Below, in pieces: positions 33,019 through 47,722 of a stretch of 64,000 bases of DNA; the stretch's first letter is position 1, and the number at the start of each line of letters is the position of its first letter. The notes under the pieces are model-generated. The model saw nothing but the letters and a program-made list of their open reading frames with translations. It had not been told where the DNA came from and made no database searches. The translations under genes were made by a program, and so were the position numbers. Source of the stretch: a virus. Where the stretch lies: the IMG/VR virus record IMGVR_UViG_3300033186_000013, positions 1 through 64,000 of that record; one strand, written 5' to 3'.

Positions 33019-33678
33019 ATGGCAGCAGTTACATCAGCAGTTATCGCAGCAGGAACAGCAGGTTATCAAATATTTTCTGCCGAGCGACAGAAGAAAGAGG
33101 CTAAAGAAGCCATAGAAAACTTTGAGAGACAAGACCTCGACAACCCGTTTAAGAACATCCAAATAAGCACATTAAAGGCAGAGCAACAAACAGAAGCCAA
33201 TAATGTCAACCTTGCAACGAGCGTAGATGCTTTACAAAGAGCAGGTACACGAGGCGTATTGGGTGGTATTCCAAGAATAAACCAACAAAATATTTTGCTT
33301 CAAAATCTTATCTCTGCCGATTTGGAGAGACAGGATGTAGAACGAAGCAGATTAATAGCGCAGGGCGAGGCTCGCATTCAAGGTATTCAAGAGAATCGCG
33401 AGAACCTTGCCTTACAAGGATTAGGTCAGCAGTTGCAAACTGCCCGTCAAGATTCTGCTACTGGAATAGCCAATCTTGCATCAGGTATTCTTGCTTTTGG
33501 AAGTGCTACACAGCAGAATGGCGGTATTGGTGGTTCAGGTGGTGGTACGCCTCAACAAGCAACCACAGAAACAACCAATCCTCTCATTGATACTTCTGTT
33601 AATTTTTCAGATTTTTTCAATACTGGCGGTGATATAAATGCGTCATTATTTGACAATACTAATACACTTTTAAGTTAA
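33019..33678 (+). CDS. internal virion protein candidate
   Basis: 219 aa with a hydrophobic N-terminus MAAVTSAVIAAGTAGY, a Q-rich helical middle and a Gly-rich tail. It is the first of a small/medium/giant gene series. Confidence 0.3.
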   Translation: MAAVTSAVIAAGTAGYQIFSAERQKKEAKEAIENFERQDLDNPFKNIQISTLKAEQQTEANNVNLATSVDALQRAGTRGVLGGIPRINQQNILLQNLISADLERQDVERSRLIAQGEARIQGIQENRENLALQGLGQQLQTARQDSATGIANLASGILAFGSATQQNGGIGGSGGGTPQQATTETTNPLIDTSVNFSDFFNTGGDINASLFDNTNTLLS

Positions 33679-33684
33679 TAGGAT

Positions 33685-35211
33685 ATGGCGCAGAATACTA
33701 ACGCAGCAGCATTCACAAGATTACGTCCTTTAGAAAACACCAATGTTGGTCAGATTGTAGAGGAACACGTTAGGTATTGGCGTAAGTACAAGGATGCGCA
33801 AGAGGCGGAAGAACTTGCACGAAAGGCTCGTGAGGCAGAATTTAATCGAAAGGTAGCCAAAGAAACCTTTGAGATTTACGACGGGCTTACACCCGAAGAA
33901 AATGCAGGGTTTTTAAACGCTCAAATTATTGACAACTTTGAAAAGAACAAGCCTCTATATATGGAACTTGCGAAGCGCGCTGCTGCGGGAGATATAGATG
34001 CGAGGTTTAGATTGGCTGATGAGAAAAGAAAAATAGAATCTGCGGTACTCATAAACAAAACGTACTCTGAAAAGATAAAGTCTTTAGAGGAACAAAAGGC
34101 TAAAGGTGTTTTTAATGATGTGTTGGATGCTGACATTGAATCGTTTAAAAATTCTATACTTCAAGGAAAATACAAACTTAATGGCGATTGGTCATTAGAT
34201 GTTTATAGTCCTGCTCTTGAAAGAGATTTTAAGGAAGGAACGAGTGGAGTAAACAGCGAAGGAATTGTAAGACTGAATTCCAGTACGCTATTCAATAATG
34301 ACTTTCTGAATTCTACATTTAATAAAAAGGCAGAGTTCATTAAAAATGGCAAGTCTATTGCTGAAAACCTACTCGACAAAGAGGACGGTAACAAGCAGAT
34401 TACAGCAGACACAAAACGAGAAGGAATACGACTTGTTAGAGGTTTGTTTGCAGAGGATAGCGTAGAGGCTCGCACTTGGTATGGGACTGCTGCCCGTAGA
34501 GGTCTTGTTGATTTTGATGTTCCGTTTGGTCAACTTGACGAAGTACAACAAAACTTATTGGCAGATTCTTATTATGAGCAGGTTGTTAAACCTAACTTGG
34601 AAGAGGTTACTGTTGACAATACACTTGATGACGCTCTTAAACAACAACGTTTACGGAACGCTCAACTTGAAGCGCAAAGAAAGCGTCAGCAGATTAGAAA
34701 AGGTAAGCGCGATGAGGCTTCTGAAATAACAACAATATCTGCTTCTACTGATGAGACTGGCGGTCAAATATCTATTGCTGATGCAAAAGACGAAAAAGGA
34801 AATACTGTCGCCATAGAAAGCGCAGAAGTATTCAACTTAAACGGTAAGCCTATTACATTCGGAGTTAAAGGTAATAGCCGTAGCAATGTTACATATAGTG
34901 ATTTAATCCGAACACAAAATGGCGATGTGTTTGCTCTTGGTCAAAGAGTAATAAAAGAACAAGTGCCTATTCTTGATGAGGAAGGAAACCCCGCTATTGA
35001 TGATGATGGTGTTCCAAGAACAAGAACGGAAGAACGTGTGATTGAGGACTTTATTGAAACCGACAAAAAGGTTCTTAATAATATTTCGAGGTTGATTGAA
35101 AATGATAATGGCAAGAAACTTAAAGACCTCAACGATTTGGATAAGTTACTTTTAAATAAAAAATTCCAACTGAAAGAGGATAATAACTCTTTCGACCCGA
35201 CTAAATTTTAA
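33685..35211 (+). CDS. internal virion protein candidate
   Basis: 508 aa, charged and helical. The call is positional only. Confidence 0.3.
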   Translation: MAQNTNAAAFTRLRPLENTNVGQIVEEHVRYWRKYKDAQEAEELARKAREAEFNRKVAKETFEIYDGLTPEENAGFLNAQIIDNFEKNKPLYMELAKRAAAGDIDARFRLADEKRKIESAVLINKTYSEKIKSLEEQKAKGVFNDVLDADIESFKNSILQGKYKLNGDWSLDVYSPALERDFKEGTSGVNSEGIVRLNSSTLFNNDFLNSTFNKKAEFIKNGKSIAENLLDKEDGNKQITADTKREGIRLVRGLFAEDSVEARTWYGTAARRGLVDFDVPFGQLDEVQQNLLADSYYEQVVKPNLEEVTVDNTLDDALKQQRLRNAQLEAQRKRQQIRKGKRDEASEITTISASTDETGGQISIADAKDEKGNTVAIESAEVFNLNGKPITFGVKGNSRSNVTYSDLIRTQNGDVFALGQRVIKEQVPILDEEGNPAIDDDGVPRTRTEERVIEDFIETDKKVLNNISRLIENDNGKKLKDLNDLDKLLLNKKFQLKEDNNSFDPTKF

Positions 35212-35214
35212 TGT

Positions 35215-38200
35215 ATGAACGAAGAATATTTATTAGGGGTATATAATGAGTTCGGCGGACAAGATTCTTTAAAGACCGACTTTAAAACTTGGGTGTCTCG
35301 CATTCAGAATAATAACGAGTACAAGAAAGGTATATTTACCCATTTCGGCGGTCAGTCAAAATTGAACACTTCTTTTGACGAATGGAATAGCCGTGTGTTC
35401 GGAGTAAAAAAAAAAGTCAGTCCCCAACAGGATACTACTTCAACTTCAAACGTTGGAGAATTGGATACGTCAACTACGGAAGTTGGTGGGTCTTTGGAAT
35501 CACAAACAGATAATTCTTTTAGGTCATTAATAAATGAGCCTAAAGTTCCTTTGGATTTTGAACCAAGAGCGTTTTTCCCGAAACCAACATTTGACAACAT
35601 AAACGGTGTTAAGCCCTTTATAGAAAACCCTGATTTTGATTTCGAGCAATTATCACAGCAAGGCGGTACAGAGATAAGTCCTTTTGGTTTCAATCAAGCA
35701 TTCATAAGAAATCCTGATTTTAATGAGACTATTCAGGACGGAACACAAATAGTATTAAATTCAAAGTTCGACAGAGACAAGCCTGTATCGGAAGAAAACC
35801 CTGAATTTTTACAGGTGCGTATCCCGCAACCCGAAGATAAGTTTTTCAGAGCAACAGATGATGAGTTGAAAAAACTTGAAGAATTCGAGAACCTTCAACA
35901 ATTATCACAGGAAGAATTGTCTGAAATTGACAATCAAATCAAAGAAGAAGAATCGGGAGATTTTGGGTTCTTTGGGAACATCAAAAACGCCATAGTATCA
36001 ACCCCAACTTTCGGAACTACATTTAACCCATTTTTCTCTCCGCAGAATCTTAGCAAAGTTTCTAAGCGCGAAGATTTAATTGCAGCAAAAATAAAAGAGA
36101 AAAGGGTAGATTTTTTATCAGATTTGGACGATGACGAAAAAGATAAAATCCAATCATTTGTTCGTACCAAAAATTTCTTGGCAGACCAAAACCGTCAGAA
36201 ATTAGAACGTGAGATAAATACTTTGGATGAGGGTCTTATCCAAACAAGAGATAGTGTCGCAACAATAGATAATCGTTTCAATGAGATTGAAACTGAAAAA
36301 CAAAAACTTCAAGACCAAGCAACTCGTGGTGGGGACGTTAATCAGTTGAGAACATCGTTTGATAACTTGATTAGTGAGCAAGGCAAACTAATTGAGCAGA
36401 GAAACGAAATCATTACTAATGCTGAACCCGCATTAAACGAGCGAATCAACAAACTAAATCAACTTGAAAACAGCGTTACCAATATCGGTACGATGGAACA
36501 AGAACTTGATTTACTTAAAAGAAACTATGGTTTTCTTGATAATGTTGTTACACGCGTGGGAATAGGGTATGCTAATTTGGCTGCAAATTTTGTGTTCCAG
36601 TTCGAGAGGTCAGAACTAAACAACAAACGTCAACGTCTTAAATTCATATTATCAAATGGACTTCAAGACGATGAGCGATATAAAGACTTTGTTCCGCCTG
36701 TTTACCGAATAGAAGGCAACGAATATAATGAGGAAGAATTCGACAAAGAGACAGAGGAACTTCAAAAAAGACTTCTTAATAGTACAATCGTAGGCAAAGA
36801 GATACTTGACAGACAACGAGAAAACATTAGACCAAGCATTTCTGTTTCGGATATAAACAGTTTTGGTGATGTTGTTGATTTTACAGTAGATGGTCTTTCA
36901 GATAATGTCGCCACAGTTCATCAGTTGGCTATACCTTATGTTGGTCAGACTTCATTTGTAATCGGTCAACAAGCCGATGCGGAGATAAACATTCGTCGCA
37001 AAGAAAAGGCAAACCGAGAAGAACTTGCATCTATAAAAACCCAACTTCAACAGGAAGGGATTTCAGATGAAGATAGAGCCACCCTTGAAAAAAGAAAAGA
37101 GTTTTTAGAAAAGAAAGAGCCTTTGTCTGATGGAAAAGTGTTCTTAGCATCTACTGGAATGGCTTTGTCCGAGTTGGCATTCAGCAGGCTTTTTGGTGAG
37201 GTTAAAAGAATCAATGTCGGAAAACGGGTTTTAAAGGACGCTACCACTCAACAACTTTCAGGACAGGTAAGACGCTCTGTAAAAGATAGGTTCAAAGACG
37301 TATTGAAGGGCGGTGGTGAAGTATTGAAAGATGCTGCCGAAGAAGGATTTTTAGATGAATTCCTTACAAACACAACACAGAACGCTATCAATAAGTTTTA
37401 CTTGGGAGATTCCGAAGTGGGTTTATTTGATAATTCATTGGATGCAATAGGTGGCGGGTTCTCCGTTGGTGGTGTTTTGTCTGCTGCTCCAAGAACTGCG
37501 GGTGCATTTTTGAGCCACATATCAAATAAGAATAAAAGGAATCAAGTTTTTAGCAATGTCAAGGAAATAACAGAACTTCAAAGATACCTTGATGAAACAC
37601 CTGATTTAGAACAGAGTGCCATAGACATCACTCAATCTAAAATTCAGAAATTGCTCAATGACAATAACCAAATTATTGGGGAAACAGTTGATAATTTCGA
37701 CAACCTTGATGATGATTCTAAAAAGAGATTACTCGAAGTATCTAATGAAATCGTTTCTTTAGATATTACATTGGATAAGTTGAACAGAAAAAACAATCTT
37801 ACCGACGCGGAGAAAACACTAAAGACAGAGGTTGAAGGAAGGCTGAATACTTTAAATTCTGAACAAGACATCATTATAAACCAAAGAGTTCAACTTGAAG
37901 TTGATGGCAATAGTTTCTTGACCAATAAAGAAGATTTCCAAAAGTTTATTCAGGATGATGCAAATGTACAGTCTATAATTGACGGAAGCACAAATGTTGA
38001 GATAGTGAACAACCAAGAACTTGCTGATGCGCTCGACACGCGCATAAAGGAAGTTACTGACGGCGTAACACGAGACAGTAAGGATAATTCATTTAATCCA
38101 TTAGAAAGTGAAGGAGAAGCCATAGGAAGGCTTGTTGAGAACATAGATGATACGACTTCTTTAGAGGATGTTGCCAAAGCGCATACAGACAGTTATGTAA

Positions 38201-41200
38201 ACTATCTGCAAGAGCAAGGTGTTACAGATGATGTGTTGAACTCGAACTTTGTTCAATCTTTTGAAGAACGAATTGTAGATGCGTTAAGCCGTCCTGATGA
38301 ATTCGATTTTAGTCAACCGAGAACACAGGATAATGGTAGTCGTGTAGATAACGATGGTAATTCCATAACCGAAACAGAATTTTTGCAGAACCAAAACAAA
38401 CTTGAAACTGGATTTGAAGGGATTGATTCAATCATATCAGAACAGCAAGATACTAACACCCAAGAAGATACTGATGTTGAAACTAATGTTGATACACAAA
38501 ACAATCAGAATGCAGATGTTGATTTAGAGACATTCGTAAACCAAATAGGCGAATCTTCATCAACAGTATTGGAAGATACTTTAGGCGCAACAGTAGATGA
38601 TACCCGTATTTTATTTAAAGAAAAGAACGGAAATATCTCTATTGAACAAATGCAAACCGCAAGAGACAGTAGAGGTCAAGGTAGTGCGAGAAAAGCATTA
38701 ACTAAAATAACTGAAATCGCAGACCAAACAAACAAGACACTTCAACTTAATGTAGTCCCTTTAGATGACACAACAACAGAAGAAGGATTGATTTCTTTAT
38801 ACGAAAGTTTTGGTTTTAAAAAAGATAAGGACTTTGATAATGAGGACGGGGGCTTAATGTTTAGAGAGCCTAATACGCAAACTGATTTTCAATTTGAAAG
38901 TTCACAACCAAGAATACAGGGCGAGCAATTATCTAATCTTGTTATAAGGCTTCAAAGAACGGGTCTTGCAGAAGGTGTAACTGTTTTGTCAGAAAATGAT
39001 TTTACAGCCAAACTAAAAGAGATTGGTCAGGATTCAAATGTCGTCCCGAATGGTTTTGTTAGCGATGGTACTGTTTTCCTAAACAGAGACAAGGTTAAGC
39101 AGGATACCCCTATACACGAATTCGGTCATTTATGGAACTCATACGTGAAGCAAAATAACCGCGATGTCTATGACACGGGTATAAACCTTATACGTGATAG
39201 CGAATACCATAAGGCTATTCAAAACAATAATCAATACGACAACCTATCAGAAGAACAAAAACTTGAAGAAGCGTTGGCGCAGGCTATCGGAGATAAAGGT
39301 GTTAAGATTTTAGACGAGAGTAGAAAAAGTAAGTTTACTCAATGGTTCAGAAATTTATTTACTCAAATTGCTCGCGGTCTTGGTTTAAGGGGTCTTACGG
39401 GAACACAATTATCTCGCCTTAATTTAGATAGGTTTACCGACTTAGCAAGTGCCGAAATATTGAGTGGTCAAAACATTGACACTCAAACACAGACCACGAA
39501 TCAAGTAGATAGTTCTATTGATGCAATTATCTCGGAACAAAAGGCTATTCAAGAAGCAAAAAATAAATTGCTCGAAAAGTTCAGAAGCCGTAACACAACG
39601 GTTGAAGAAATAAAGAAAGACCTGATTAGATACATTCGTTCAAGCATAAATAGTGCGCGAGTTAATGAGATTCAAAAAACAGAATTGAATAAACTTCTGA
39701 ATGCTGTCAGGAAGGCTAAAACAAAACGAAGCCTACAAAAATCATTCAATGAGGTCAATGACATTGTTACCGTATTGGATAATAGAATTCTAAAACGACG
39801 CATTGATAGGATTCTCGGCAGCAAACTTTCTAAAAAAGAAAGTGGTCGCCGTAAAGCAAATACCATTTCAGAAGAATCAAGAATAATTCTTGAATCAGTA
39901 AAAAACAATATTGACACTCCGAAATCCAGTCCAAATGATGCGAGAACTTCTACACAGAGAAGATTGGATAAACTTGATGAGTTGTTAGGTAAACGAGACG
40001 AATTATTAGAACTCGACACGCTTACAGAAGCACAAGATTCCGAGATAGAATCATTGAGCATTTCTATTGATTTACTAAACGCTATCACAACAAAGGACAT
40101 CAATAATGAAAATGAATTGCTTACAGGTGCTTTAGAGCAATTAGACTTTATTCAATCTACGGGTAGAAGCCAATTAAGAGAACAGAAGGAAGCAATACAG
40201 CAAGAGGACAATGCCTTGATTGATTCCATAGAAGATGATATAAACCCCGAAGGTAAAACTTCGTTGAAGTCCCTTAAAGAGTTAGAAAACGAAAGTCGTG
40301 TCGCCAAGAACATAGTTGATATTGTCCGTAAGCAAGCAAGACGAACTTTCTTTACACTTTTTCAGGGAACAGTAACGGGAAGTTTAGACAGTTTATCAAC
40401 CTTAATATCTCGCAGAGGCGGTGAAAATAGAGATTCGAGCGCATTGGTTCAGTTTGTCAACAAATTAAAACGACGAGAGACTTTAAAGAAAACGCGTATA
40501 AAATTCTTTTCAAAGAAACTTACTGATAGTCAGAAATCTATATTTGGAAGTATCACGAAAGCCCATAAACTTTTAAATAAAAGGGTTGACATAGATTTGA
40601 TGCGTCGTCCAAACTTGAACCCTGATGAAAACCGAGAGCCAGTAACAGTTCCGTTGACTTATTCACAAATGTTAAATGTTTGGATGAACGCTAAAAACGA
40701 TAAGTTGAAAGCGGGTCTTGATGCCAATGGATTTACGCCTGATGTTATTAAAAAGATTGATGAGATTCTTCCGCCAAAAGTAAAGGAGTACGGTGATACT
40801 CTTTTCAATATATATGAGGAATTGTACATCGAATCTAATGATGTTTACAAAAAGATGAATTTCCACTCTTTAGGCAAGCCCGATTTCTACGCGGGTAAAG
40901 TTTATAGGGATTCAAAAGACACTCCTGAATCTTTAAGAGAGGACACCAACGCCTTGTTGGGTGGTGTTTCAAGCATAAATTCAACTGGATATTCTTCTCA
41001 AAAGGAACGTATTAATAACGATAACCCTATTCAGGCTGTTGATGTTAACTTTTTAGTTAATCGTCAGATTCAAGAATCGTCTCATTATGTGGCATACGCA
41101 GAGGTTCACAGGCAATACAATAAACTTTTAAAGGACAAGAAAATTCAGAAGGCTATACGGTTGAATAATCCTGAAACTGCTGATGAAATCATAAGTATTC

Positions 41201-42576
41201 TGAACTATTATAAGGTAAAAGATTTAGAGCAAGGTGGCGAAAAAGGAACACCGTTGCTTGATTTCTTCGGAAGAAACACAGCAAGGTCAGTTCTCGCGTT
41301 AAAAACAAAGATTGGTCTTACACAGACCATATCATTTTTGAATGGTGCTTTTGATATGCCTACGGGTATAAATCCTGTGAACTTTGTAAAACACTACAAC
41401 CCTGTTGAGATTGTTCAAAATATGAGATTCTTATTAAAGAATTCGGACTATCTGAAAAACCGATATGATGTCGGCGGGATTGAAAATGCAATGACTGGAC
41501 TATCTGATTTGGCTGACCAATCAAGTGTTGGTTTTGGGAACTCAAATTTAGAAGCCAGTAGAAAAGCGACAGCCCGATTCTATAAGAGAGCATTAGATAT
41601 AGCGATGCTTAATGTAAAGTTTGGTGATGCTATCGGTGTTATGGGTGCTGTTCCTGCGTATTCTGCTTGGTTAGATAAATTTAAGAAGCAAGGTTTGTCA
41701 GATGCAGAGGCGACAGAAAGAGCCATAGCCAAGTTTGAAGGTGCTGTTGATAGGTCGCAGCAATCAATATCTACATTCGGAAAAAGTAAATTACAGAAGC
41801 ATCCGTTTTGGAGATACTTTATGATGTTTAAAACCTCGCCGATTCAAAACTTGCAAAATGCTAATTTCCATAGACGAGAATTAGTAAGGGCTTTGAGAGG
41901 TCGTGAAGCAAAAGGAACTATTGGAAGGAACGCATTAGCATTCATTAATTATCAGTTTGCGCAGCCAATGTTATATACATACATCGCAGGTCTAATGGCA
42001 GGAAGTTTAGGTGCTGCTTTAGGGTTTGGGGACGAAGAACCTGATGACGCAGACAAAGATTTGCTAAGAGCAGCAATACTTGGTAACGCCGATTCTGTTC
42101 CAATAGCAGGAAATATTGCTTTAGCGGTAGTGAATGAGGCTTTAGATAAGCAACAAAACTTCGCGAGTGTAATAAATAGTCCTGTGATTGATAACCTCGA
42201 CAAGATGTCAAACAGTTGGTTGAAAGCGTTTAATGCTAAAACAAAACAATCAAGAGTAAATAACCTCAATAAAGCATTAAAACTTACATCAGGAATACTT
42301 ACAGGGCTTCCAAATTTCGCATACGATACGGTAGAAGATTTGGAAAGCATATACTGGAATGATGAAGTTGATGCCGAAGTTAAGTTTTTGAGAGGAATGG
42401 GATATAGCGATTTTGTTATTGAGCGCGCAAGAACCCAAAGAATCAGTCGCGAAAAATCTGAAAAAGCAAAAGAGCGTATGCGTAGAAGGTATGAGAAATC
42501 TGAACGCGACTATGATAAGTCAAAGAAAAAAACAAACCCGCTTTTCAAAGAGCAAAAAGAAAGTAAGAAGCGTTAA
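35215..42576 (+). CDS. giant multidomain virion protein (ejection/polyvalent type) with GNAT-like and HExxH motifs
   Basis: 2453-aa uninterrupted ORF. It has two ~28-aa N-terminal repeats (FGGQ then W-x-SR) and long coiled-coil stretches. A GNAT-like block RGQGSARKAL, LYESFGFKK lies at ~38600-38830. The zinc-peptidase motif HEFGH is at 39115-39129. Hydrophobic segments lie near the C-terminus, and the tail is very basic. Confidence 0.5.
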   Translation: MNEEYLLGVYNEFGGQDSLKTDFKTWVSRIQNNNEYKKGIFTHFGGQSKLNTSFDEWNSRVFGVKKKVSPQQDTTSTSNVGELDTSTTEVGGSLESQTDNSFRSLINEPKVPLDFEPRAFFPKPTFDNINGVKPFIENPDFDFEQLSQQGGTEISPFGFNQAFIRNPDFNETIQDGTQIVLNSKFDRDKPVSEENPEFLQVRIPQPEDKFFRATDDELKKLEEFENLQQLSQEELSEIDNQIKEEESGDFGFFGNIKNAIVSTPTFGTTFNPFFSPQNLSKVSKREDLIAAKIKEKRVDFLSDLDDDEKDKIQSFVRTKNFLADQNRQKLEREINTLDEGLIQTRDSVATIDNRFNEIETEKQKLQDQATRGGDVNQLRTSFDNLISEQGKLIEQRNEIITNAEPALNERINKLNQLENSVTNIGTMEQELDLLKRNYGFLDNVVTRVGIGYANLAANFVFQFERSELNNKRQRLKFILSNGLQDDERYKDFVPPVYRIEGNEYNEEEFDKETEELQKRLLNSTIVGKEILDRQRENIRPSISVSDINSFGDVVDFTVDGLSDNVATVHQLAIPYVGQTSFVIGQQADAEINIRRKEKANREELASIKTQLQQEGISDEDRATLEKRKEFLEKKEPLSDGKVFLASTGMALSELAFSRLFGEVKRINVGKRVLKDATTQQLSGQVRRSVKDRFKDVLKGGGEVLKDAAEEGFLDEFLTNTTQNAINKFYLGDSEVGLFDNSLDAIGGGFSVGGVLSAAPRTAGAFLSHISNKNKRNQVFSNVKEITELQRYLDETPDLEQSAIDITQSKIQKLLNDNNQIIGETVDNFDNLDDDSKKRLLEVSNEIVSLDITLDKLNRKNNLTDAEKTLKTEVEGRLNTLNSEQDIIINQRVQLEVDGNSFLTNKEDFQKFIQDDANVQSIIDGSTNVEIVNNQELADALDTRIKEVTDGVTRDSKDNSFNPLESEGEAIGRLVENIDDTTSLEDVAKAHTDSYVNYLQEQGVTDDVLNSNFVQSFEERIVDALSRPDEFDFSQPRTQDNGSRVDNDGNSITETEFLQNQNKLETGFEGIDSIISEQQDTNTQEDTDVETNVDTQNNQNADVDLETFVNQIGESSSTVLEDTLGATVDDTRILFKEKNGNISIEQMQTARDSRGQGSARKALTKITEIADQTNKTLQLNVVPLDDTTTEEGLISLYESFGFKKDKDFDNEDGGLMFREPNTQTDFQFESSQPRIQGEQLSNLVIRLQRTGLAEGVTVLSENDFTAKLKEIGQDSNVVPNGFVSDGTVFLNRDKVKQDTPIHEFGHLWNSYVKQNNRDVYDTGINLIRDSEYHKAIQNNNQYDNLSEEQKLEEALAQAIGDKGVKILDESRKSKFTQWFRNLFTQIARGLGLRGLTGTQLSRLNLDRFTDLASAEILSGQNIDTQTQTTNQVDSSIDAIISEQKAIQEAKNKLLEKFRSRNTTVEEIKKDLIRYIRSSINSARVNEIQKTELNKLLNAVRKAKTKRSLQKSFNEVNDIVTVLDNRILKRRIDRILGSKLSKKESGRRKANTISEESRIILESVKNNIDTPKSSPNDARTSTQRRLDKLDELLGKRDELLELDTLTEAQDSEIESLSISIDLLNAITTKDINNENELLTGALEQLDFIQSTGRSQLREQKEAIQQEDNALIDSIEDDINPEGKTSLKSLKELENESRVAKNIVDIVRKQARRTFFTLFQGTVTGSLDSLSTLISRRGGENRDSSALVQFVNKLKRRETLKKTRIKFFSKKLTDSQKSIFGSITKAHKLLNKRVDIDLMRRPNLNPDENREPVTVPLTYSQMLNVWMNAKNDKLKAGLDANGFTPDVIKKIDEILPPKVKEYGDTLFNIYEELYIESNDVYKKMNFHSLGKPDFYAGKVYRDSKDTPESLREDTNALLGGVSSINSTGYSSQKERINNDNPIQAVDVNFLVNRQIQESSHYVAYAEVHRQYNKLLKDKKIQKAIRLNNPETADEIISILNYYKVKDLEQGGEKGTPLLDFFGRNTARSVLALKTKIGLTQTISFLNGAFDMPTGINPVNFVKHYNPVEIVQNMRFLLKNSDYLKNRYDVGGIENAMTGLSDLADQSSVGFGNSNLEASRKATARFYKRALDIAMLNVKFGDAIGVMGAVPAYSAWLDKFKKQGLSDAEATERAIAKFEGAVDRSQQSISTFGKSKLQKHPFWRYFMMFKTSPIQNLQNANFHRRELVRALRGREAKGTIGRNALAFINYQFAQPMLYTYIAGLMAGSLGAALGFGDEEPDDADKDLLRAAILGNADSVPIAGNIALAVVNEALDKQQNFASVINSPVIDNLDKMSNSWLKAFNAKTKQSRVNNLNKALKLTSGILTGLPNFAYDTVEDLESIYWNDEVDAEVKFLRGMGYSDFVIERARTQRISREKSEKAKERMRRRYEKSERDYDKSKKKTNPLFKEQKESKKR
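35406..35415 (+). repeat. A10 homopolymer inside the giant gene
   Basis: GTAAAAAAAAAAGTC encodes VKKKV at codons 64-68. Confidence 0.9.
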
Positions 42577-42944: not shown

Positions 42945-45245
42945 ATGGATATAGATAGAAGGGATAGGAGTTACCGAGATTCCATTGCGACCAAAATAGA
43001 CCCATTGTCTCTGATAAAGAAAAATGTCTATGAGGAACGCAACAGAAAAAAAACTTGGGAAAACAGAAAGTACACGGACATCGACCCGAACTTTATCTGT
43101 ATATCAAAAGATGGTACTCTCGGAGAAGTATGGAGAGTTGGGAATTTACTAATAGGCATTCCGAGTTCAGAAGGTAAAGAAATCATTAACGCAGATGTTC
43201 GACCCGATAAGGCTATATGGAATCGAACAGAGATACCACAAGACTTTTTAGAGTTAGAGGAAAACTATCGTTCTCAATTAGCAGACGCAACCTCTCAAAC
43301 AGATGTTAAAAACGTTCGTAATTCATACAAAAAGAAACGGTTAATCTTGCTTGATAAATATGAGAATTTTATTGACAAGGAATACCAAAGAAGAAAATAC
43401 GGGCTATTCATAAAAATTGATGAGGAAGTTTTTTACCTCACAGGGGCAAACTATATGTTCCTGAATTATTATTACTTGACCGATTCTGATATGTACCCGT
43501 TGTTTAGAACAACTGCCGTTTATACTTGGTGGCATTGGGAAGCGGTAAAGGCAGATGATGATTCTTTTGGTGAACTTCGTTTTAAGAGCCGTCGTGTTGC
43601 TGCAACATCAGAGGCAGCAAGTGAGGCTTTGAACTATATGACCATAACAAAGTATGGTAACATTCCTATTGTTTCAGAGCGTAAAGAACTTGCGTGGGAG
43701 TTGTTTCAATCCAAGATAGTTGATTCATTCAAGTATTATCCAACGTATTTTAAGCCCGTCATAAATGACCCGAACGACCTTCCAAAAACAAAAATTGAGA
43801 TTACACACGATACTCCAAAGAGTGAGACATCGCGTATCAAAACATATCCTACGAAACTTACGGCTTACGATAGTACCCGTGTAAATCCATTCGCTATTAA
43901 TGATGAGGTTTTCAAGTTTGAGGAAATTGATTTTTCTCAATTCCGTTCGCGCCACAAAAGGTGTTATAATAAGAGTAGGCACACAAAACCAAAAGGCAAG
44001 TTTTTCTCTACCACAGGGGACAAGAAACTTAATACTGCGTCCGCACAGTATGAATGGGAAAACTCTAATCCTCTAAATAGAGATAAAACAGGAAGCACTA
44101 ACACAGGACTTATTGCTCTTTTCGTTGACTGTTGTTATACTTGGGCGGAAGAAGCAATGTTTGATAAGTGGGGATACCCTATTGTTCACGACCCAAAAGA
44201 ACCTATTGAAAATGAAATTGGTGAAATTGTGGAGTATGGGGCAATAACTAAATGGAAAATTGAGGAAGCAAACGCCAAAGGAATGAAAAAGAGTGAATTA
44301 AACTCTTTTTACAGAAATGTTCCGAGAACAATAGAACACGCTTTGCGGGATGAAGGCGGAATGAATAATGATTTTGATATTGATAATTTAAACGCTCACT
44401 TAGATTATCTAAACAATTTGACAGACCACGAGAAAAAAGAACTGATATTCACAGGAAACCTTGCGTGGAAAGGCGAGCCGTATAAGTCAGATGTTCAATG
44501 GATTCCAAACCCTAAAGGGAAGTTTGTAACTACTTGGATTCCGCCAAAAGAGTTGCAGAATCAATCAGAAATGAAAGTACCTTTTTGGAATAAAAAGATG
44601 GGTAAAATAAAACAACCATCTAATCACCATATAGGATGTTTCGGAGTGGATTCTTACGATATGTTCGGTCAAACTAAAGATGGTTCGGGTTCTCCCCTTG
44701 CTTTGGCTGCATACAGCAAATTTAATATGGAAGGTGCGCCGTGCCATTCTCTCTTTATAAAATACATTGAACGTCCTAAAAGACCCGAAGATGCGTATGA
44801 TGATGTAATTATGGCTATGCAGTTTTGGGGATTCTACGCAAACATAGAAAACAATAAGGCGAAGATATTAGAACATATAGAAGAACACGGCTACACAGGA
44901 TATGTTCTACGCAGACCCGATAAAAAACCAAAAGACCTAAGTGATGCAGAGAAGAAATATGGCGGTCAGCCGAGTTCTACGAAAGTCATAGAAGATGAAG
45001 CAAGTCTTTTGAAAACTCATATATTGGATAGAATTGGTGTCAACTTAGAAGAAGGTGAGTGTACTTGTTACATCAAAGAATTCATAAAAGCGTGGATTAA
45101 GTTCAATATCAATAAAAGAAAAGAACACGATTTGGCAGTCGCATCAGGGAAAGCAATGATGGGCGCACAATTTAAAGTTAAACAACGTAAGTCATTTGAA
45201 GGAGTTGGTCAAAACAATGTCAATTTAGCAGCATTTGGCGCGTGA
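42945..45245 (+). CDS. terL: terminase large subunit
   Basis: Deviant Walker A FKSRRVAATSE (K-S-x-R-x-G/A-x-S/T type, ~43581-43613), Walker B-like FAINDEVF (~43893-43910), and a nuclease-type block HIGCFGVDSYD then LALAAYS (~44632). The size is consistent. Confidence 0.6.
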   Translation: MDIDRRDRSYRDSIATKIDPLSLIKKNVYEERNRKKTWENRKYTDIDPNFICISKDGTLGEVWRVGNLLIGIPSSEGKEIINADVRPDKAIWNRTEIPQDFLELEENYRSQLADATSQTDVKNVRNSYKKKRLILLDKYENFIDKEYQRRKYGLFIKIDEEVFYLTGANYMFLNYYYLTDSDMYPLFRTTAVYTWWHWEAVKADDDSFGELRFKSRRVAATSEAASEALNYMTITKYGNIPIVSERKELAWELFQSKIVDSFKYYPTYFKPVINDPNDLPKTKIEITHDTPKSETSRIKTYPTKLTAYDSTRVNPFAINDEVFKFEEIDFSQFRSRHKRCYNKSRHTKPKGKFFSTTGDKKLNTASAQYEWENSNPLNRDKTGSTNTGLIALFVDCCYTWAEEAMFDKWGYPIVHDPKEPIENEIGEIVEYGAITKWKIEEANAKGMKKSELNSFYRNVPRTIEHALRDEGGMNNDFDIDNLNAHLDYLNNLTDHEKKELIFTGNLAWKGEPYKSDVQWIPNPKGKFVTTWIPPKELQNQSEMKVPFWNKKMGKIKQPSNHHIGCFGVDSYDMFGQTKDGSGSPLALAAYSKFNMEGAPCHSLFIKYIERPKRPEDAYDDVIMAMQFWGFYANIENNKAKILEHIEEHGYTGYVLRRPDKKPKDLSDAEKKYGGQPSSTKVIEDEASLLKTHILDRIGVNLEEGECTCYIKEFIKAWIKFNINKRKEHDLAVASGKAMMGAQFKVKQRKSFEGVGQNNVNLAAFGA

Positions 45246-45298
45246 TGATTACCATTGCGCTAACTCTTTGAAAATGAAAAAAACTATTTTTACACATT

Positions 45299-47722
45299 AT
45301 GGGTTATGTATATACAAAATTTCCTGATGATTTTGCTACAAACGAAGAAAAGTCAAGTCTTGAATTCGGGCAAAAAGTAGGCGAGGCTATTGAAACGCAA
45401 TGGTTTGATGGTCGTCTTACGGTTCGCAGAAAATGGATAAGAAAAATGCGTGAATACGGTAAAGGTGAGCAGACCACCGATTACCAACGTATGATTGAAG
45501 GCGACAGAAAAAAGAAGGAAAAACTTAAAGTAAAGACACATAAGATTGATTACTCTGTCCTAAAGGTAATGCCTACCTTCAAGGATATTTTAATAAATGC
45601 CATTGACGAAAGTTTATTTAAACCGAGAGCAGAGGCGATTGATATTACTGCCGTAAACAAAAAACAAGCCTTCTTCCGAAAACTGGATGAGGATTTCTAC
45701 ACGCAGGACATCGCAAAAATAGTTTCTGACGGTACAGGCATAGATGTTAACCCAACAGATGTTGCTAAAAATGAACAGCAATTACGTGTCAGAAAACTTG
45801 AATATAAGCCCCGTATAGAAATAGCACAAGAGTTGGCTATTGAAAACGTATTTAAACACCAAAGGTTTGAATCTATAAAAGATAAAATGGATGAGGACTT
45901 GGTTGACTTAGGAATAGCCGTTGGTCGCCAATATACAGACCACGCAGAAGGTTTAAGGCTTCGATATGTTGACCCATTTAATTACATCCACAGCACATTT
46001 GAACTTGACAATGGCGATGATATTCGGTATCACGGTGAACTTGTCTATGGAACTATTGGTCAATTATTGAAGGAAGCGGGCAGAGAATTAGAATCAGACG
46101 AGTTACTTGCTATAAAAAATTACGCAATAGATGACCCGAATAATACTCGCCCTTATGACCATTCAGAAGATGGTGAGCGTTTGATTGAATATGTTTCCTA
46201 TGCTTATTTGGTAACGGAGAGTAGGGTATTCAAGAAACTTCGTAAGAATAAATCGGTAAAGGCTGTTGACCGCACAAAGGACGGCTTCAATCCTTCAAAC
46301 AAGAATAAAAAAATCGACATCCCATACAATATTTGGTATGAGGGTGTATATGTTCCATCAGCAAAAGTTCTATTAAAATGGCAAAAAATTCCAAATCAGG
46401 TAGAAAAAGAAGTAAACAATCCAATAAGCCCGTTCGTGGTTTACGCTCCAAAAGTAAAACGAATAAGCGAAAGAGGTCATATTAGATTTGATAGTTTAGT
46501 TCAAAGAGCGATTCCAATTATTGATGACCTTCACAGGACGTGGTTTAAGTTTCAGCAACTTAAAATGGAACTTCGCCCAAATACTGCTGTTATAAGCCCA
46601 AAGGCTTTAAACAATGTTTTCCTTAGTGGTCAGCAAGTTAATCCGCAGGATGTTCTTGACTTATTCTTTGGTCGTGGTATTTTACTCGCGGATGAAGTTG
46701 ATGAGGATGGCGACCCTATTGGGCGAGCAATCAGGGAAGAAGGTGGCGGAATAAACAACACCGCATTAGGATTCTTGTCTAATGAGATTGTGAATAGTTA
46801 CCAAAGGCTTCGTCAGTTAGTTGGTATAAATGAGTTGAGAGACGGAACTACGCGCCCTAACAGTAAAACATCCGTTACTGTCCAAAAACTTCTTTTGGCG
46901 AGTTCTAATAATGCAACAAATCATATTGTAAAAGCCAGTTTCCAAATATCCCTTCGATTCGCAGAGGTTGTTTCATTGAGGCTATACGACATCCTTACAA
47001 CAAAAGCATTGAAGGATAGGTATATGAGCATTATAGGCAGTAACAATGTTGAGTTGCTTGACGCTATAAAGGCATTGCCTATGCACAAATTCGGCATATA
47101 CTTTGACTTTAAGCCTGATAATGAGGAACGAATTGCTTTTGAACAATCGTTAATAACTTCACTTAATGCAAGAGAGATTAATGTTGCTCAATACAATAAG
47201 GCTCGTCAGATACGGAATGTTAAGAGTGCCGTAAAGTATTTAGAGTTTACCATAGATGCGAATGCGAAGCGTTCCGAAGCCGAAAGAATTAATAACATAC
47301 AGGCGCAGGCAGAGGCTAATGCTCAAACCACTTTGGTTTCCGAAAGGAGTAAACAGCAAACGGTTACGGTAGAATACGAAACCAAAAAACAACTTCTGTT
47401 ACTTGAAGAAGAAATCAGAGACAGGGAGCGAAGAAAGAAAGCAATTACTGACGATTTACTCGCGGAGAGAGCGCATACCCGAAAGATGGAAGTTATTAAT
47501 GCACAAACATCAGGAATCATTGAGAAAGAAACTTTAAAGGAAGATAGGAAAGACCAAAGAATCGACCAACAAAGTTCCAATCAATCTGAACTGATTGAAC
47601 AAAGAAAGAATAATACGGGAGTAAAAAACTTCTCTGATGCAAGTCAGTCAACTTCTGAATTTCAAACAGAATTAGACAAGATTTTTGATGAGAGTAGATT
47701 ACTGCCAAACCAAGATACTTAA
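45299..47722 (+). CDS. portal protein candidate
   Basis: 807 aa, directly downstream of terL, with a long charged helical C-terminus. No diagnostic motif visible by eye. Confidence 0.45.
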   Translation: MGYVYTKFPDDFATNEEKSSLEFGQKVGEAIETQWFDGRLTVRRKWIRKMREYGKGEQTTDYQRMIEGDRKKKEKLKVKTHKIDYSVLKVMPTFKDILINAIDESLFKPRAEAIDITAVNKKQAFFRKLDEDFYTQDIAKIVSDGTGIDVNPTDVAKNEQQLRVRKLEYKPRIEIAQELAIENVFKHQRFESIKDKMDEDLVDLGIAVGRQYTDHAEGLRLRYVDPFNYIHSTFELDNGDDIRYHGELVYGTIGQLLKEAGRELESDELLAIKNYAIDDPNNTRPYDHSEDGERLIEYVSYAYLVTESRVFKKLRKNKSVKAVDRTKDGFNPSNKNKKIDIPYNIWYEGVYVPSAKVLLKWQKIPNQVEKEVNNPISPFVVYAPKVKRISERGHIRFDSLVQRAIPIIDDLHRTWFKFQQLKMELRPNTAVISPKALNNVFLSGQQVNPQDVLDLFFGRGILLADEVDEDGDPIGRAIREEGGGINNTALGFLSNEIVNSYQRLRQLVGINELRDGTTRPNSKTSVTVQKLLLASSNNATNHIVKASFQISLRFAEVVSLRLYDILTTKALKDRYMSIIGSNNVELLDAIKALPMHKFGIYFDFKPDNEERIAFEQSLITSLNAREINVAQYNKARQIRNVKSAVKYLEFTIDANAKRSEAERINNIQAQAEANAQTTLVSERSKQQTVTVEYETKKQLLLLEEEIRDRERRKKAITDDLLAERAHTRKMEVINAQTSGIIEKETLKEDRKDQRIDQQSSNQSELIEQRKNNTGVKNFSDASQSTSEFQTELDKIFDESRLLPNQDT

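What the first reader, a model, noticed from the sequence alone, without database searches (positions are those of the whole stretch)
35215..42576. 2453-aa virion-module giant with embedded GNAT-like and HExxH metallopeptidase motifs
This single ORF of 7.4 kb makes up over 11 percent of the window. It combines the following:
- duplicated N-terminal ~28-aa motifs
- extensive coiled coil
- a GNAT-like block (ISIEQMQTARDSRGQGSARKAL, LQLNVVP, LISLYESFGFKK, ~38600-38830)
- ~150 aa later, a zinc-peptidase signature in the context VFLNRDKVKQDTPIHEFGHLW (39115-39129)
- hydrophobic segments near the C-terminus and a poly-basic tail

It follows 219-aa and 508-aa genes in a small/medium/giant series like T7 gp14/15/16. 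It also resembles the polyvalent proteins described by Iyer, Aravind and colleagues, which are packaged and injected to disarm the host. An injected acetyltransferase plus protease effector would be an undescribed entry or anti-defence device for this phage group.
Basis: partly seen in the sequence, partly recalled or inferred. Interest (0 to 1): 0.7.

Follow-up and report, generated by a model that had tools for sequence, protein, structure and literature searches.

The report
Virion giant carrying AcrVA5-like acetyltransferase
This 278-kDa gene of a marine flavobacterial podovirus is a "polyvalent" virion protein, a known kind of multi-enzyme protein that phages pack into the head and probably shoot into the cell, and it carries a small acetyltransferase whose closest solved relative is the anti-CRISPR enzyme AcrVA5, next to a zinc-peptidase-like domain common in such giants.

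Summary
ORF 35215-42576 (+) encodes 2453 aa at the stated coordinates.

What it is: a modular polyvalent virion protein.
- Position: it lies between a crAss-type muzzle gene and the terminase and portal genes.
- Virion presence: its N module is homologous to Cellulophaga phage phi40:1 gp101, annotated as found in virions by MS/MS.
- GNAT block: real. A 27-sequence profile hits AcrVA5 (PDB 6IUF) at E 5e-12 over the whole chain. The next GNAT scores 4e-6.
- HEFGH motif: it sits in a confidently modelled domain (pLDDT 92) with zincin topology and an invariant downstream Glu. The domain occurs in about 3450 protein clusters, nearly all giants. Several carry ART-PolyVal, PBECR5 or LPD domains. It has no significant solved-structure match and no Pfam hit.
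- C-terminal 750 aa: an all-helical module with no known relative.
- Cysteine: the family almost completely avoids it.

GNAT and zincin domains in polyvalent proteins were described in 2017, so "undescribed" is overstated.

New here: this protein family, and an AcrVA5-type enzyme built into a packaged protein.

Untested: ejection, proteolytic processing and the acetylation target.

The parts
35215..42576 (+). Whole gene: 2453-aa polyvalent virion protein (277.6 kDa, no cysteine)
35215..35499 (+). aa 1-95: N-terminal region with an internal duplication of about 26 aa (aa 5-30 and 36-61). Shared with P0002 and P0006.
35872..38079 (+). aa 220-955: conserved N module. It is the only part shared with phi40:1/phi38:1 gp101, annotated as found in virions by MS/MS. 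Candidate virion-incorporation module.
38077..38484 (+). aa 955-1090: small variable domain of unknown function. It opens with FNPLESEGEAIGRL and is present in a minority of relatives.
38467..38889 (+). aa 1085-1225: mini-GNAT acetyltransferase domain of the AcrVA5 type (core aa about 1124-1218). Motif A is R-G-Q-G-S-A at aa 1155-1160.
38887..39504 (+). aa 1225-1430: zincin-like metallopeptidase (MPTase-type) domain. The N-terminal 'link' helix and strand (aa 1225-1275) pack onto the hairpin, the HExxH helix and the Glu helix.
39115..39129 (+). HEFGH, aa 1301-1305: predicted zinc ligands H1301 and H1305 and catalytic E1302
39268..39270 (+). E1352 in LEEALAQAIG: invariant in 41 sequences. Candidate third zinc ligand on a later helix.
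39502..40314 (+). aa 1430-1700: charged, partly basic spacer region, conserved together with the C module. Secondary structure not tested here.
40312..42573 (+). aa 1700-2453: conserved all-alpha C module of unknown fold. It is shared by 31 of the 163 proteins collected.
41965..42132 (+). aa 2251-2306: two weakly hydrophobic Gly/Ala-rich segments flanking an acidic loop (GFGDEEPDD)
42415..42573 (+). aa 2401-2453: poly-basic tail (22 K+R of 53)
33019..33678 (+). 219-aa virion protein with no cysteine and a hydrophobic N-terminus. Homologue of phi40:1 gp099, annotated as found in virions by MS/MS.
33685..35211 (+). 508-aa protein with no cysteine. It is the positional equivalent of phi40:1 gp100 (annotated as found in virions by MS/MS); homology is only marginal.
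27989..31981 (+). 1330-aa tail protein with the crassvirus muzzle C-terminal domain (PF25729). It marks the start of the presumed cargo-gene block.
42945..47722 (+). Terminase large subunit (42945-45245) and portal (45299-47722), directly downstream

Best explanation
The gene encodes a polyvalent cargo protein of a Pachyviridae-like flavobacterial podovirus.

Proposed mechanism (steps marked shown or inferred):
- Packaging (shown for a relative, inferred here): a few copies are packed inside the virion, probably through the conserved N module.
- Delivery (inferred): with the two smaller cysteine-free proteins encoded just upstream, it is extruded unfolded through the crAss-type tail at the start of infection.
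- Enzymes (domains shown by sequence and model; activity inferred): between the conserved N and C modules sits a cassette region. Here it holds a roughly 100-aa GNAT acetyltransferase of the AcrVA5 type and a zincin-like metallopeptidase.
- Acetyltransferase role (inferred): it uses host acetyl-CoA to acetylate a lysine on a host protein. The likeliest target is a defence nuclease, as AcrVA5 and AcrVA5Bsp do with Cas12a. It would act before any phage gene is expressed.
- Peptidase role (inferred): as proposed for polyvalent proteins in general, it cuts the giant itself at inter-domain linkers, releasing or activating the modules.
- C module (inferred): the helical, weakly hydrophobic module with its basic tail serves packaging, envelope crossing or DNA contact.
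For: Virion location:
- The gene sits between a muzzle-domain tail gene (PF25729, 42 bits against a cut-off of 27) and the terminase and portal genes.
- The same order is found in Tenacibaculum phage Gundel_1, which has podoviral morphology, and in the P0006 locus.
- phi40:1 gp097-gp101 are all annotated 'structural protein, experimental MS/MS proteomics'. gp101 matches the N module (22% identity over 718 aa, E 3e-24). gp099 matches the 219-aa protein (39% identity, E 9e-22).

Polyvalent nature:
- P0006 has the same N and C modules but carries ART-PolyVal and PBECR5.
- A census of 18 relatives that share the C module finds GNAT, PBECR5, ART-PolyVal, LPD23 and VapB-like domains.
- The architecture N-GNAT-[inserts]-link-[inserts]-MPTase-cc-C recurs in 31 proteins.

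GNAT domain:
- A 9-sequence profile hits AcrVA5 (6IUF) at E 7.6e-8.
- A 27-sequence profile hits it at E 5.3e-12 over chain residues 3-93 of 96. The next GNAT scores 3.6e-6.
- hhalign gives 97.3% probability, E 2.5e-11, 88 columns. Against AcrVA5Bsp, an in-vitro Cas12a inhibitor from a Bacteroidota phage, it gives 88.7% and E 2.6e-6 (PMC10799925).
- The R/Q-x-x-G-x-G/A motif is conserved.

Zincin domain:
- E1302, H1305 and E1352 are invariant, and H1301 is nearly invariant, across 41 sequences.
- The AF2 model has pLDDT 92 and pTM 0.90. Its element order is helix, strand, helix, hairpin, HExxH helix, then a Glu helix. This matches the MPTase description of Iyer et al..
- The profile finds 3450 clusters, nearly all giants.
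- BFVD structural matches are polyvalent or structural phage proteins.
- It aligns locally to the MPTase motif of the N4 virion RNA polymerase (E 1.1e-4).

Translocation hint: there are 0 Cys in 3302 aa of the four adjacent proteins against 0.93% elsewhere in the window. Across 129 related giants the figure is 0.04%.
Against: - No experiment exists on this phage. The MS/MS evidence concerns a relative that shares only the N module and lacks the GNAT, HExxH and C modules.
- Ejection into the cell is inferred from other podoviruses.
- The zincin assignment has no significant solved-structure match (best Foldseek E 0.35) and no Pfam hit, including MPTase-PolyVal.
- Some relatives have degenerate motifs (EEAAH, MEEAGH), so catalysis is not universally required.
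- The GNAT fold was not modelled here. The single sequence is below the Pfam gathering score.
- AcrVA5 is reported to be a broad-spectrum acetyltransferase, so similarity does not fix the target.
- Whether the host has Cas12a is unknown.
- The candidate cleavage motifs are not statistically enriched in the query.
Confidence: 0.62

Rival explanations
1. Mainly a structural ejectosome or internal-core protein. With the 219-aa and 508-aa proteins it builds the trans-envelope conduit for DNA, as T7 gp14/15/16 or P22 gp7/gp20/gp16 do. The GNAT and zincin domains would serve assembly or maturation inside the capsid (for example self-processing before or after packaging), not attack on host proteins.
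For: - The small/medium/giant gene order lies next to the tail and portal genes.
- The 219-aa protein has a hydrophobic N-terminus.
- The C module is helical with weakly hydrophobic segments.
- All of these proteins lack cysteine.
- Iyer et al. note that P1 DdrB is processed before packaging.
Against: - No sequence similarity to any solved ejectosome or cargo protein, and no structural match for the C module.
- There is no peptidoglycan hydrolase domain.
- The central cassettes vary between close relatives and include ADP-ribosyltransferase and RNase-type toxin domains. That pattern fits host-directed effectors rather than a structural role.
- The hydrophobic segments are below usual transmembrane hydrophobicity.
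Confidence: 0.15
2. The delivered GNAT is a host take-over or shut-off enzyme rather than an anti-defence one. It would acetylate translation or transcription components or aminoacyl-tRNA, as GNAT toxins such as TacT and AtaT do (from general knowledge), or other metabolic proteins.
For: - AcrVA5 is described as a broad-spectrum acetyltransferase affecting many cellular proteins (PMC11021501).
- Iyer et al. place polyvalent GNATs near RimI-like protein acetylases.
- Sister proteins carry ART and RNase-type domains, which often hit core machinery.
Against: - The closest solved and characterised relatives by a wide margin are two Cas12a-inactivating enzymes.
- No toxin-type GNAT (TacT or AtaT) is named among the PDB matches.
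Confidence: 0.13
3. The HExxH domain is itself an injected effector protease. It would degrade a host defence or envelope protein rather than process the giant.
For: - The catalytic residues are strictly conserved in most relatives.
- Zincin effectors of this kind exist. Anthrax lethal factor was the HHpred match reported for the N4 MPTase by Iyer et al.. IrrE/PprI-type zincins, which cleave repressors (general knowledge), are the second-ranked but non-significant structural match.
Against: - The domain is a near-constant companion of highly variable cassettes in about 3450 clusters of giants. This fits a housekeeping role for the polyprotein better than a host-specific weapon.
- Degenerate active sites are tolerated in some members.
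Confidence: 0.08
4. The protein is not packaged. It would be a non-structural multi-enzyme protein made late and acting in the producing cell.
For: There are no direct proteomics for this phage. The Gundel_1 'structural protein' label rests on annotation by similarity, since the paper describing that phage reports no proteomics of its own.
Against: - The MS/MS-based annotation of the N-module homologue and of its neighbours in phi40:1.
- Its position in the middle of the virion module, conserved in three loci.
- The family-wide avoidance of cysteine.
Confidence: 0.02

Closest known systems
Polyvalent proteins of phages and conjugative elements (Iyer, Burroughs, Anand, de Souza, Aravind 2017, J Bacteriol; PMC5512222)
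   Same: - A giant multidomain protein encoded among late or virion genes.
- A zincin-like HExxH...E domain as the constant hub.
- GNAT as a protein-modifying module.
- Relatives carry ART-PolyVal, PBECR5, LPD3 and LPD23.
- HExxxH and degenerate active-site variants occur, as that paper describes.
   Different: - The N and C modules and the roughly 50-aa 'link' element match no Pfam, PHROG or NCBIfam model.
- The Pfam MPTase-PolyVal model does not detect the HExxH domain.
- The two polyvalent GNAT families described in 2017 were from gammaproteobacterial (pro)phages and from conjugative elements, not from Bacteroidota podoviruses. AcrVA5 was not yet known.
- I could not test whether this GNAT equals one of those two families.
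AcrVA5 (Moraxella bovoculi prophage, PDB 6IUF) and AcrVA5Bsp (Bacteroidota phage; Duan et al. 2024, PMC10799925)
   Same: - A minimal GNAT of about 90-110 aa, alignable over the whole AcrVA5 chain.
- Conserved acetyl-CoA motif.
- The shared 'P-x-D-D/E...L-x-x-F/L-Y' segment.
- The profile also reaches AcrVA5Bsp, which is found mostly in Bacteroidota phages.
   Different: - Those are free-standing small proteins made after infection. Here the domain is embedded at aa 1085-1225 of a 2453-aa protein whose N-module homologue is annotated as a virion protein.
- Identity is only about 25-28%.
- Neither the target nor any anti-CRISPR activity has been tested.
Phage N4 virion RNA polymerase gp50 (3500 aa, packaged and injected)
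   Same: - A giant protein of a podovirus, described as packaged in the virion and, from general knowledge, injected with the DNA.
- It carries an MPTase domain whose hairpin and HExxH signature aligns with this one.
   Different: - No RNA polymerase domain was detected here.
- Similarity is limited to 32 columns.
Crassvirus cargo proteins (PhicrAss001 gp45-gp50; Bayfield et al. 2023, PMC10172136)
   Same: - Encoded right after a muzzle protein with the same C-terminal domain.
- Bacteroidota hosts and podoviral morphology.
- A model of partial unfolding and extrusion through the tail.
   Different: - No sequence similarity to any PDB chain was found for the three proteins.
- No RNA polymerase subunits.
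- The genome is about 76 kb, and the terminase and portal genes lie downstream rather than upstream.
T7 internal core proteins gp14/gp15/gp16
   Same: - Three consecutive genes of rising size in a podovirus virion module.
- The smallest has a hydrophobic N-terminus.
   Different: - No detectable homology.
- No lytic transglycosylase domain.
- The giant is nearly twice the size of gp16 and carries enzymatic cassettes.
Phage P1 DarB/DdrB and T4 IPI* (packaged anti-restriction proteins)
   Same: Anti-defence proteins delivered from the capsid together with the DNA. According to Iyer et al., DdrB carries an MPTase.
   Different: - Different domains and phage types.
- Those counter restriction enzymes, not CRISPR.
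- No sequence relation was tested.

Membership tests
Polyvalent proteins (Iyer et al. 2017) | Very large multidomain protein of a phage or conjugative element that combines two or more domains of the polyvalent repertoire | tested here: met
   2453 aa with GNAT plus a zincin-like domain. Same-family proteins carry ART-PolyVal, PBECR5 and LPD23, and other HExxH-profile hits carry LPD3.
Polyvalent proteins (Iyer et al. 2017) | Encoded with virion or late genes, and packaged | tested here: met
   Lies between the muzzle gene and the terminase and portal genes. The N-module homologue phi40:1 gp101 is annotated from MS/MS. Packaging of this very protein is not shown.
Polyvalent proteins (Iyer et al. 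2017) | Delivered into the recipient cell together with the DNA | not testable with these tools
   Only indirect evidence: family-wide absence of cysteine.
Zincin-like metallopeptidase (MPTase of polyvalent proteins) | HExxH on a helix, plus a Glu on a later helix as third zinc ligand | tested here: met
   HEFGH at aa 1301-1305 lies inside model helix 73-90. The invariant E1352 lies inside model helix 122-145. The distance between the residues in the model could not be measured.
Zincin-like metallopeptidase (MPTase of polyvalent proteins) | Core of an N-terminal helix and a three-stranded sheet before the HExxH helix | tested here: met
   AF2 element order is H12-23, E30-34, H36-45, E56-59, E62-66, H73-90, at pLDDT 94-98.
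Zincin-like metallopeptidase (MPTase of polyvalent proteins) | Significant similarity to a solved zincin or to a curated zincin model | tested here: inconclusive
   - Foldseek against PDB: the best hits are zincins but not significant (collagenase H E 0.35, PprI 2.4, M1 peptidase 4.7).
- No PDB sequence hit.
- N4 vRNAP MPTase region: E 1.1e-4 over 32 columns.
Pfam MPTase-PolyVal (accession PF18818 recalled from memory) | Match to the Pfam model | tested here: not met
   No hit at E <= 1 in the query, nor at E <= 0.01 in 13 proteins carrying this or a similar HExxH motif.
Zincin-like metallopeptidase | Zinc binding and peptide-bond hydrolysis | not testable with these tools
   Needs biochemistry.
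GNAT acetyltransferases | Motif A (R/Q-x-x-G-x-G/A) followed by the beta5/alpha4 'Y-x-x-x-G-F' segment | tested here: met
   RGQGSA at aa 1155-1160 and LYESFGF at aa 1193-1199. Both are conserved in 27 domain copies.
GNAT acetyltransferases | Significant profile similarity to solved GNATs | tested here: met
   17 GNAT chains at E <= 0.01.
GNAT acetyltransferases | Pfam gathering score | tested here: not met
   Acetyltransf_7 scores 16 bits against 27. Acetyltransf_1 scores 12.6 bits against 20.7. The domain is half the usual GNAT length, like AcrVA5.
GNAT acetyltransferases | GNAT fold in a structure model | not tested
AcrVA5-type anti-CRISPR acetyltransferases | Full-length sequence relation to AcrVA5 | tested here: met
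   E 5.3e-12 over chain residues 3-93 of 96, six orders of magnitude better than the next GNAT. hhalign 97.3%. AcrVA5Bsp 88.7%.
AcrVA5-type anti-CRISPR acetyltransferases | Acetylates and inactivates Cas12a; host carries a type V-A system | not testable with these tools
   The host is unknown.
T7-type ejectosome (gp14/gp15/gp16) | Sequence or fold homology to gp14, gp15 or gp16 | tested here: not met
   No PDB sequence match for the 219-aa protein, the 508-aa protein, the N half or the C module. No structural match for the C module (best E 0.07, TM 0.10).
T7-type ejectosome (gp14/gp15/gp16) | Lytic transglycosylase domain in the largest protein | tested here: not met
   No such Pfam hit at E <= 1.
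Crassvirus cargo block | Genes directly downstream of a muzzle protein carrying crAss_MUZ_C | tested here: met
   PF25729 in the 1330-aa protein and in locus L003.
Crassvirus cargo block | Homology to PhicrAss001 gp45, gp46 or the RNA polymerase subunits | tested here: not met
   No PDB sequence hits. No RNA polymerase family hits.

The most novel reading that the evidence does not exclude
The giant delivers a ready-made catalytic anti-CRISPR. An AcrVA5-type acetyltransferase would be packed in the virion, injected with the genome, cut free by the neighbouring zincin, and would disable Cas12a (or another defence nuclease) before any phage gene is transcribed. That would remove the expression lag that forces ordinary Acr phages to cooperate through repeated infections. 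The interchangeable cassettes (ART, PBECR RNase, GNAT) in sister proteins would then be a swappable, pre-loaded anti-defence payload in a large group of Bacteroidota podoviruses.
Probability: 0.2. Interest if true: 0.8.

Novelty: new variant of a known kind. Interest (0 to 1): 0.55.

Why it matters
Known anti-CRISPR proteins, including AcrVA5, are made after the DNA enters the cell. From general knowledge of the field, a single phage therefore often loses the race against CRISPR. An Acr-type enzyme already sitting in the capsid would be a different strategy and is directly testable with the cultured relative Gundel_1.

The work also gives a domain map for a large protein family with almost no database annotation:
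- The HExxH-domain profile finds about 3450 clusters, mostly giants of 1.5-7 thousand residues.
- A high-confidence model now exists for that hub domain, which Pfam does not cover.
- The family avoids cysteine to a striking degree, which may be a general signature of proteins that must pass through a phage tail.

If the enzymatic readings are wrong, this remains an ordinary, if very large, internal virion protein.

Tried and rejected
Searches that returned nothing:
- Megablast of the gene against 50,697 phage records: no match.
- PHROGs and NCBIfam on the giant: no hit.
- Word-index homology search with the HExxH domain alone: nothing, not even the source protein. With a 28-sequence alignment it found only 6 short fragments. 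The exhaustive representative search was needed instead.
- PDB sequence searches with the HExxH profile, the C-module profile, the N half, and the 219-aa and 508-aa proteins: nothing meaningful.
- Foldseek against PDB for both models: no significant hit. The weak membrane-transporter hits for the C module have TM-scores near 0.1, so I treat them as helical noise, not as evidence of a membrane protein.

Ideas considered and set aside:
- A hidden RNA polymerase as in N4 or the crassviruses: rejected, because no family hit exists, the modelled C module has almost no beta structure, and its invariant residues include only one acidic residue, so there is no acidic catalytic cluster.
- A conserved cleavage motif 'polar linker then Phe' at module starts: visible by eye in relatives but not enriched in the query by a regex and shuffle test. 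Kept only as a lead.

Not obtainable: the Holmfeldt et al. 2013 proteomics paper could not be read. The MS/MS claim therefore rests on the GenBank note in KC821612.
Full report
**1. The observation.**

The window is an all-plus-strand phage genome segment of about 38% G+C. The ORF 35215-42576 (+) is real, starts with ATG and encodes 2453 aa, 277.6 kDa.
- The N-terminal duplication: aa 5-30 against 36-61 scores 71, against 18.9 +/- 4.2 for shuffles.
- The GNAT-like block: aa 1141-1203, nt 38635-38823.
- HEFGH at nt 39115-39129.
- Two weakly hydrophobic segments near the C-terminus.
- A basic tail.
- The 219-aa and 508-aa genes upstream.

An identical protein lies on a contig of about 75.7 kb assembled from public sequencing run SRR14108926.

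**2. What phage and what neighbourhood.**

There is no nucleotide match in 50,697 phage records. At protein level the closest cultured relative is Tenacibaculum phage Gundel_1 (Pachyviridae), gp074, with 49% identity over the C-terminal 56%. More distantly the N part matches gp101 of Cellulophaga phages phi38:1, phi40:1 and Calle (Pervagoviridae). Gundel_1 and Calle are podoviruses with heads of about 60 nm (PMC8776804).

Gene order is the same in the window, in Gundel_1 and in a third metagenomic locus: a large tail protein, a small protein, a protein of about 500 aa, the giant, a small protein, the terminase large subunit, the portal. The large tail protein (27989-31981) carries the crassvirus muzzle C-terminal domain PF25729 above Pfam's threshold. 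So the tail tip is crAss-like. In PhicrAss001, virion proteomics detected a set of cargo proteins (gp45-gp50), and the authors propose that they are ejected through the tail (PMC10172136).

**3. Is it in the virion?**

The GenBank record of phi40:1 labels gp097 to gp101 'structural protein, annotation based on experimental MS/MS proteomics analysis'.
- gp099 is a clear homologue of the 219-aa protein (39% identity, E 9e-22).
- gp101 matches aa 203-889 of the giant (22% identity over 718 columns, E 3e-24).
- gp100 and the 508-aa protein are positional equivalents with only marginal similarity.
- gp101 has neither the GNAT, nor the HExxH domain, nor the C module.

The experimental evidence therefore covers only the shared N module. 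I take that module as the likely virion-incorporation part. This is inference.

**4. Modular anatomy.**

Pairwise and iterative comparisons among homologues give the following map:

| Residues | Module |
|---|---|
| aa 1-95 | duplicated N motif |
| aa 220-955 | N module |
| aa 955-1090 | small variable domain |
| aa 1085-1225 | mini-GNAT |
| aa 1225-1275 | 'link' element |
| aa 1276-1430 | HExxH domain |
| aa 1430-1700 | charged spacer |
| aa 1700-2453 | C module |

Among the 31 proteins that share the C module:
- 29 have the HExxH domain, 27 the link, 20 the GNAT and 20 the N module.
- The order is always N-GNAT-link-HExxH-C, with inserts of 120 to 1077 aa between them.
- One of them, P0006 (4081 aa), fills the inserts with ART-PolyVal and PBECR5.
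- A census of 18 of them finds GNAT, PBECR5, ART-PolyVal, LPD23 and a VapB-like domain.

This is the architecture that Iyer et al. 2017 called polyvalent proteins (PMC5512222).

**5. The GNAT domain.**

- As a single sequence it is sub-threshold in Pfam.
- A single-sequence PDB search of aa 1071-1529 already puts chain 6iuf_A first, at E 0.025.
- A 9-sequence profile raises that to 7.6e-8.
- A 27-sequence profile raises it to 5.3e-12 over residues 3-93 of the 96-residue chain. The next GNAT is at 3.6e-6, and 16 further GNAT chains score below 0.01.
- 6IUF is AcrVA5, the Moraxella prophage acetyltransferase that inactivates Cas12a (PMC11021501; sequence from PMC10799925 supplement).
- hhalign gives 97.3% probability and E 2.5e-11 over 88 columns.
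- The same profile also reaches AcrVA5Bsp, a free-standing Cas12a inhibitor from a Bacteroidota phage. Its authors found no sequence similarity between it and AcrVA5 (88.7%, E 2.6e-6).
- Motif A (RGQGSA) and the LYESFGF segment are conserved across the family. One second copy in P0002 has lost motif A.

The GNAT assignment is therefore well supported by sequence. The AcrVA5 kinship is specific but remote, at about 25-28% identity. I did not model the fold.

**6. The HExxH domain.**

E1302, H1305 and E1352 are invariant, and H1301 is nearly invariant, in 41 diverse sequences. A profile search of 1.84 billion representative proteins finds 3450 clusters at E <= 1e-3 and 376 at E <= 1e-30. Almost all listed hits are proteins of 1500-7100 aa. 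Variants with HExxxH and with degenerate first residues occur, as Iyer et al. describe.

AlphaFold2 on aa 1225-1440 with 41 sequences gives pLDDT 92 and pTM 0.90. The element order is helix, strand, helix, beta hairpin, HExxH helix, two short helices, then a long helix bearing E1352. That is the zincin core as described.

The external comparisons were as follows:
- Foldseek finds no significant solved structure. Several of the best-ranked but non-significant hits (ranks 1, 2 and 9) are zincins: collagenase H, PprI, M1 peptidase.
- Against predicted viral structures it finds the Gundel_1 protein (E 1e-20). It also finds many fragments of phage giants, some named as polyvalent-domain, ART-PolyVal or structural proteins, some from crAss-like phages.
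- The MPTase region of the N4 virion RNA polymerase aligns over the hairpin and HExxH signature (E 1.1e-4, 32 columns).
- No Pfam model, including MPTase-PolyVal, detects the domain.

I conclude it is a zincin-like domain of the polyvalent MPTase kind. The fold assignment rests on topology and motifs, not on a significant structural match.

The link element always lies upstream of the HExxH part and packs onto it in the model. The inserts between them in some relatives may therefore be nested domain insertions. This is inference.

**7. The C module and the rest.**

AF2 of aa 1700-2453 with 19 sequences gives pLDDT 71.6 and pTM 0.70, and is almost entirely helical. Neither sequence nor structure search finds a solved relative. 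Its role is unknown. Packaging, envelope crossing or DNA binding through the basic tail are guesses.

**8. Cysteine avoidance.**

- The 219-aa, 508-aa, 2453-aa and 122-aa proteins and the portal contain no cysteine. The other 51 ORFs of 100 aa or more tallied in the window average 0.93%. About 23 Cys would be expected in the giant.
- Across 129 giants found with the HExxH profile, there are 130 Cys in 364,177 residues. Seventy-seven have none, as do phi40:1 gp101 and Gundel_1 gp074.
- This fits proteins that must unfold, pass a narrow channel and cross an oxidising compartment. That reading is inference.

**9. Mechanism.**

- Shown: the domain composition, conservation and neighbourhood, and an MS/MS-based database annotation of virion presence for a partial homologue.
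- Inferred: packaging of this protein; ejection ahead of or with the DNA, as proposed for the PhicrAss001 cargo and for T7 and P22; self-processing by the zincin (the proposal of Iyer et al.); and acetylation of a host protein by the GNAT, with Cas12a or another defence nuclease as the leading candidate because.

Rivals are a mainly structural conduit role, a host take-over target for the GNAT, and an effector role for the peptidase.

**10. Comparison and novelty.**

The kind (polyvalent virion protein with MPTase and GNAT) has been known since 2017.

New here:
- This family with its N, link and C modules.
- The placement in Pachyviridae-like podoviruses with a crAss-type muzzle.
- The AcrVA5-type identity of the embedded GNAT.

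No paper in the library combines 'AcrVA5' and 'polyvalent'. The T7 analogy fails every homology test run.

I rate it a new variant of a known kind, with interest 0.55. The higher-value reading, a pre-packaged catalytic anti-CRISPR, has about a 0.2 chance.

Noticed in passing
window 33019-35211, 35215-42944, 45299-47722; also proteins P0002-P0158, L001 (Gundel_1 gp074), L005 (phi40:1 gp101): There is no cysteine at all in the 219-aa, 508-aa, 2453-aa and 122-aa proteins or in the portal. The rest of the window averages 0.93%. The trait is family-wide: 0.04% Cys over 364,177 residues of 129 related giants, and 77 of them have none.
   Followed up: partly
window 27989-31981: The 1330-aa tail protein carries the crassvirus muzzle C-terminal domain (PF25729, 42 bits against a cut-off of 27), although the phage is a roughly 76-kb Pachyviridae-like podovirus and not a crassvirus. 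The same domain is present in locus L003. This suggests a shared tail-tip and cargo-ejection apparatus between these groups.
   Followed up: partly
window 38887-39039 (aa 1225-1275); P0006 aa 1708-1758; P0163 aa 45-74: A conserved element of about 50 aa (PFQxESxQxRIxGxEL..LVxRLKKTGLA..V.VLS) is found in 48 of the 163 proteins collected. Among the 31 C-module proteins mapped, it always lies upstream of the HExxH part, and it can be separated from that part by up to 1077 aa. In the AF2 model it supplies the N-terminal helix and first strand of the zincin core, so the inserts may be nested domains.
   Followed up: partly
window aa 960, 1066, 1225 of the giant (nt about 38092, 38410, 38887); relatives: Successive modules open with a Phe that follows an acidic or polar linker: F-NPLESEGExIxRL, F-xGIDSxISE, (P)FQ-xESxQ. 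The same short motifs recur at the same boundaries in many relatives. They could be cleavage sites for the zincin or simply the first helices of the modules. A regex and shuffle test in the query was not significant.
   Followed up: partly
window 31981-32526: A 181-aa ORF between the muzzle gene and the cargo genes hits DUF6445 (27.4 bits against a cut-off of 24) and a PHROG annotated 'minor coat protein'. It is an unexpected, possibly enzymatic protein in the middle of the virion module.
   Followed up: no
window 32495-32932 (minus strand): This is one of only two long minus-strand ORFs in the window that do not lie inside a long plus-strand ORF (145 aa, ATG; the other is 21627-22109). It sits largely in the gap between the 181-aa and 219-aa genes. 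Gundel_1 also has a single minus-strand gene (gp071, 136 aa) just before its 225-aa virion protein gene.
   Followed up: no
window 60269-61894 and 20284-21114: A 541-aa protein with three K319L-like PKD domains (E 2e-64), probably a surface or adhesion protein. A 276-aa DUF5131 protein (E 3.5e-57) lies just before the virion module.
   Followed up: no
P0002 aa 1092-1215: The closest relative (75% identity) has two tandem GNAT copies. The second has lost motif A (no R-G-Q-G-S-A), so it is a degenerate duplicate. The query instead has an unrelated small domain at the corresponding place.
   Followed up: partly
GenBank NC_021796 (phi38:1), L002: The notes on the phi38:1 virion genes say 'annotation based on similarity to Cellulophaga phage phi18:1_gp101'. 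However, phi18:1 is a 39-kb phage (PMC11946311 abstract), which seems too small for a gp101. The real source is probably phi40:1, whose record carries the MS/MS notes.
   Followed up: partly
window 1-64000: ARAGORN finds no tRNA genes, whereas the relatives Gundel_1 and Calle carry 10 and 20 tRNAs (PMC8776804). No phage RNA polymerase gene was recognised among the ORFs scanned.
   Followed up: no
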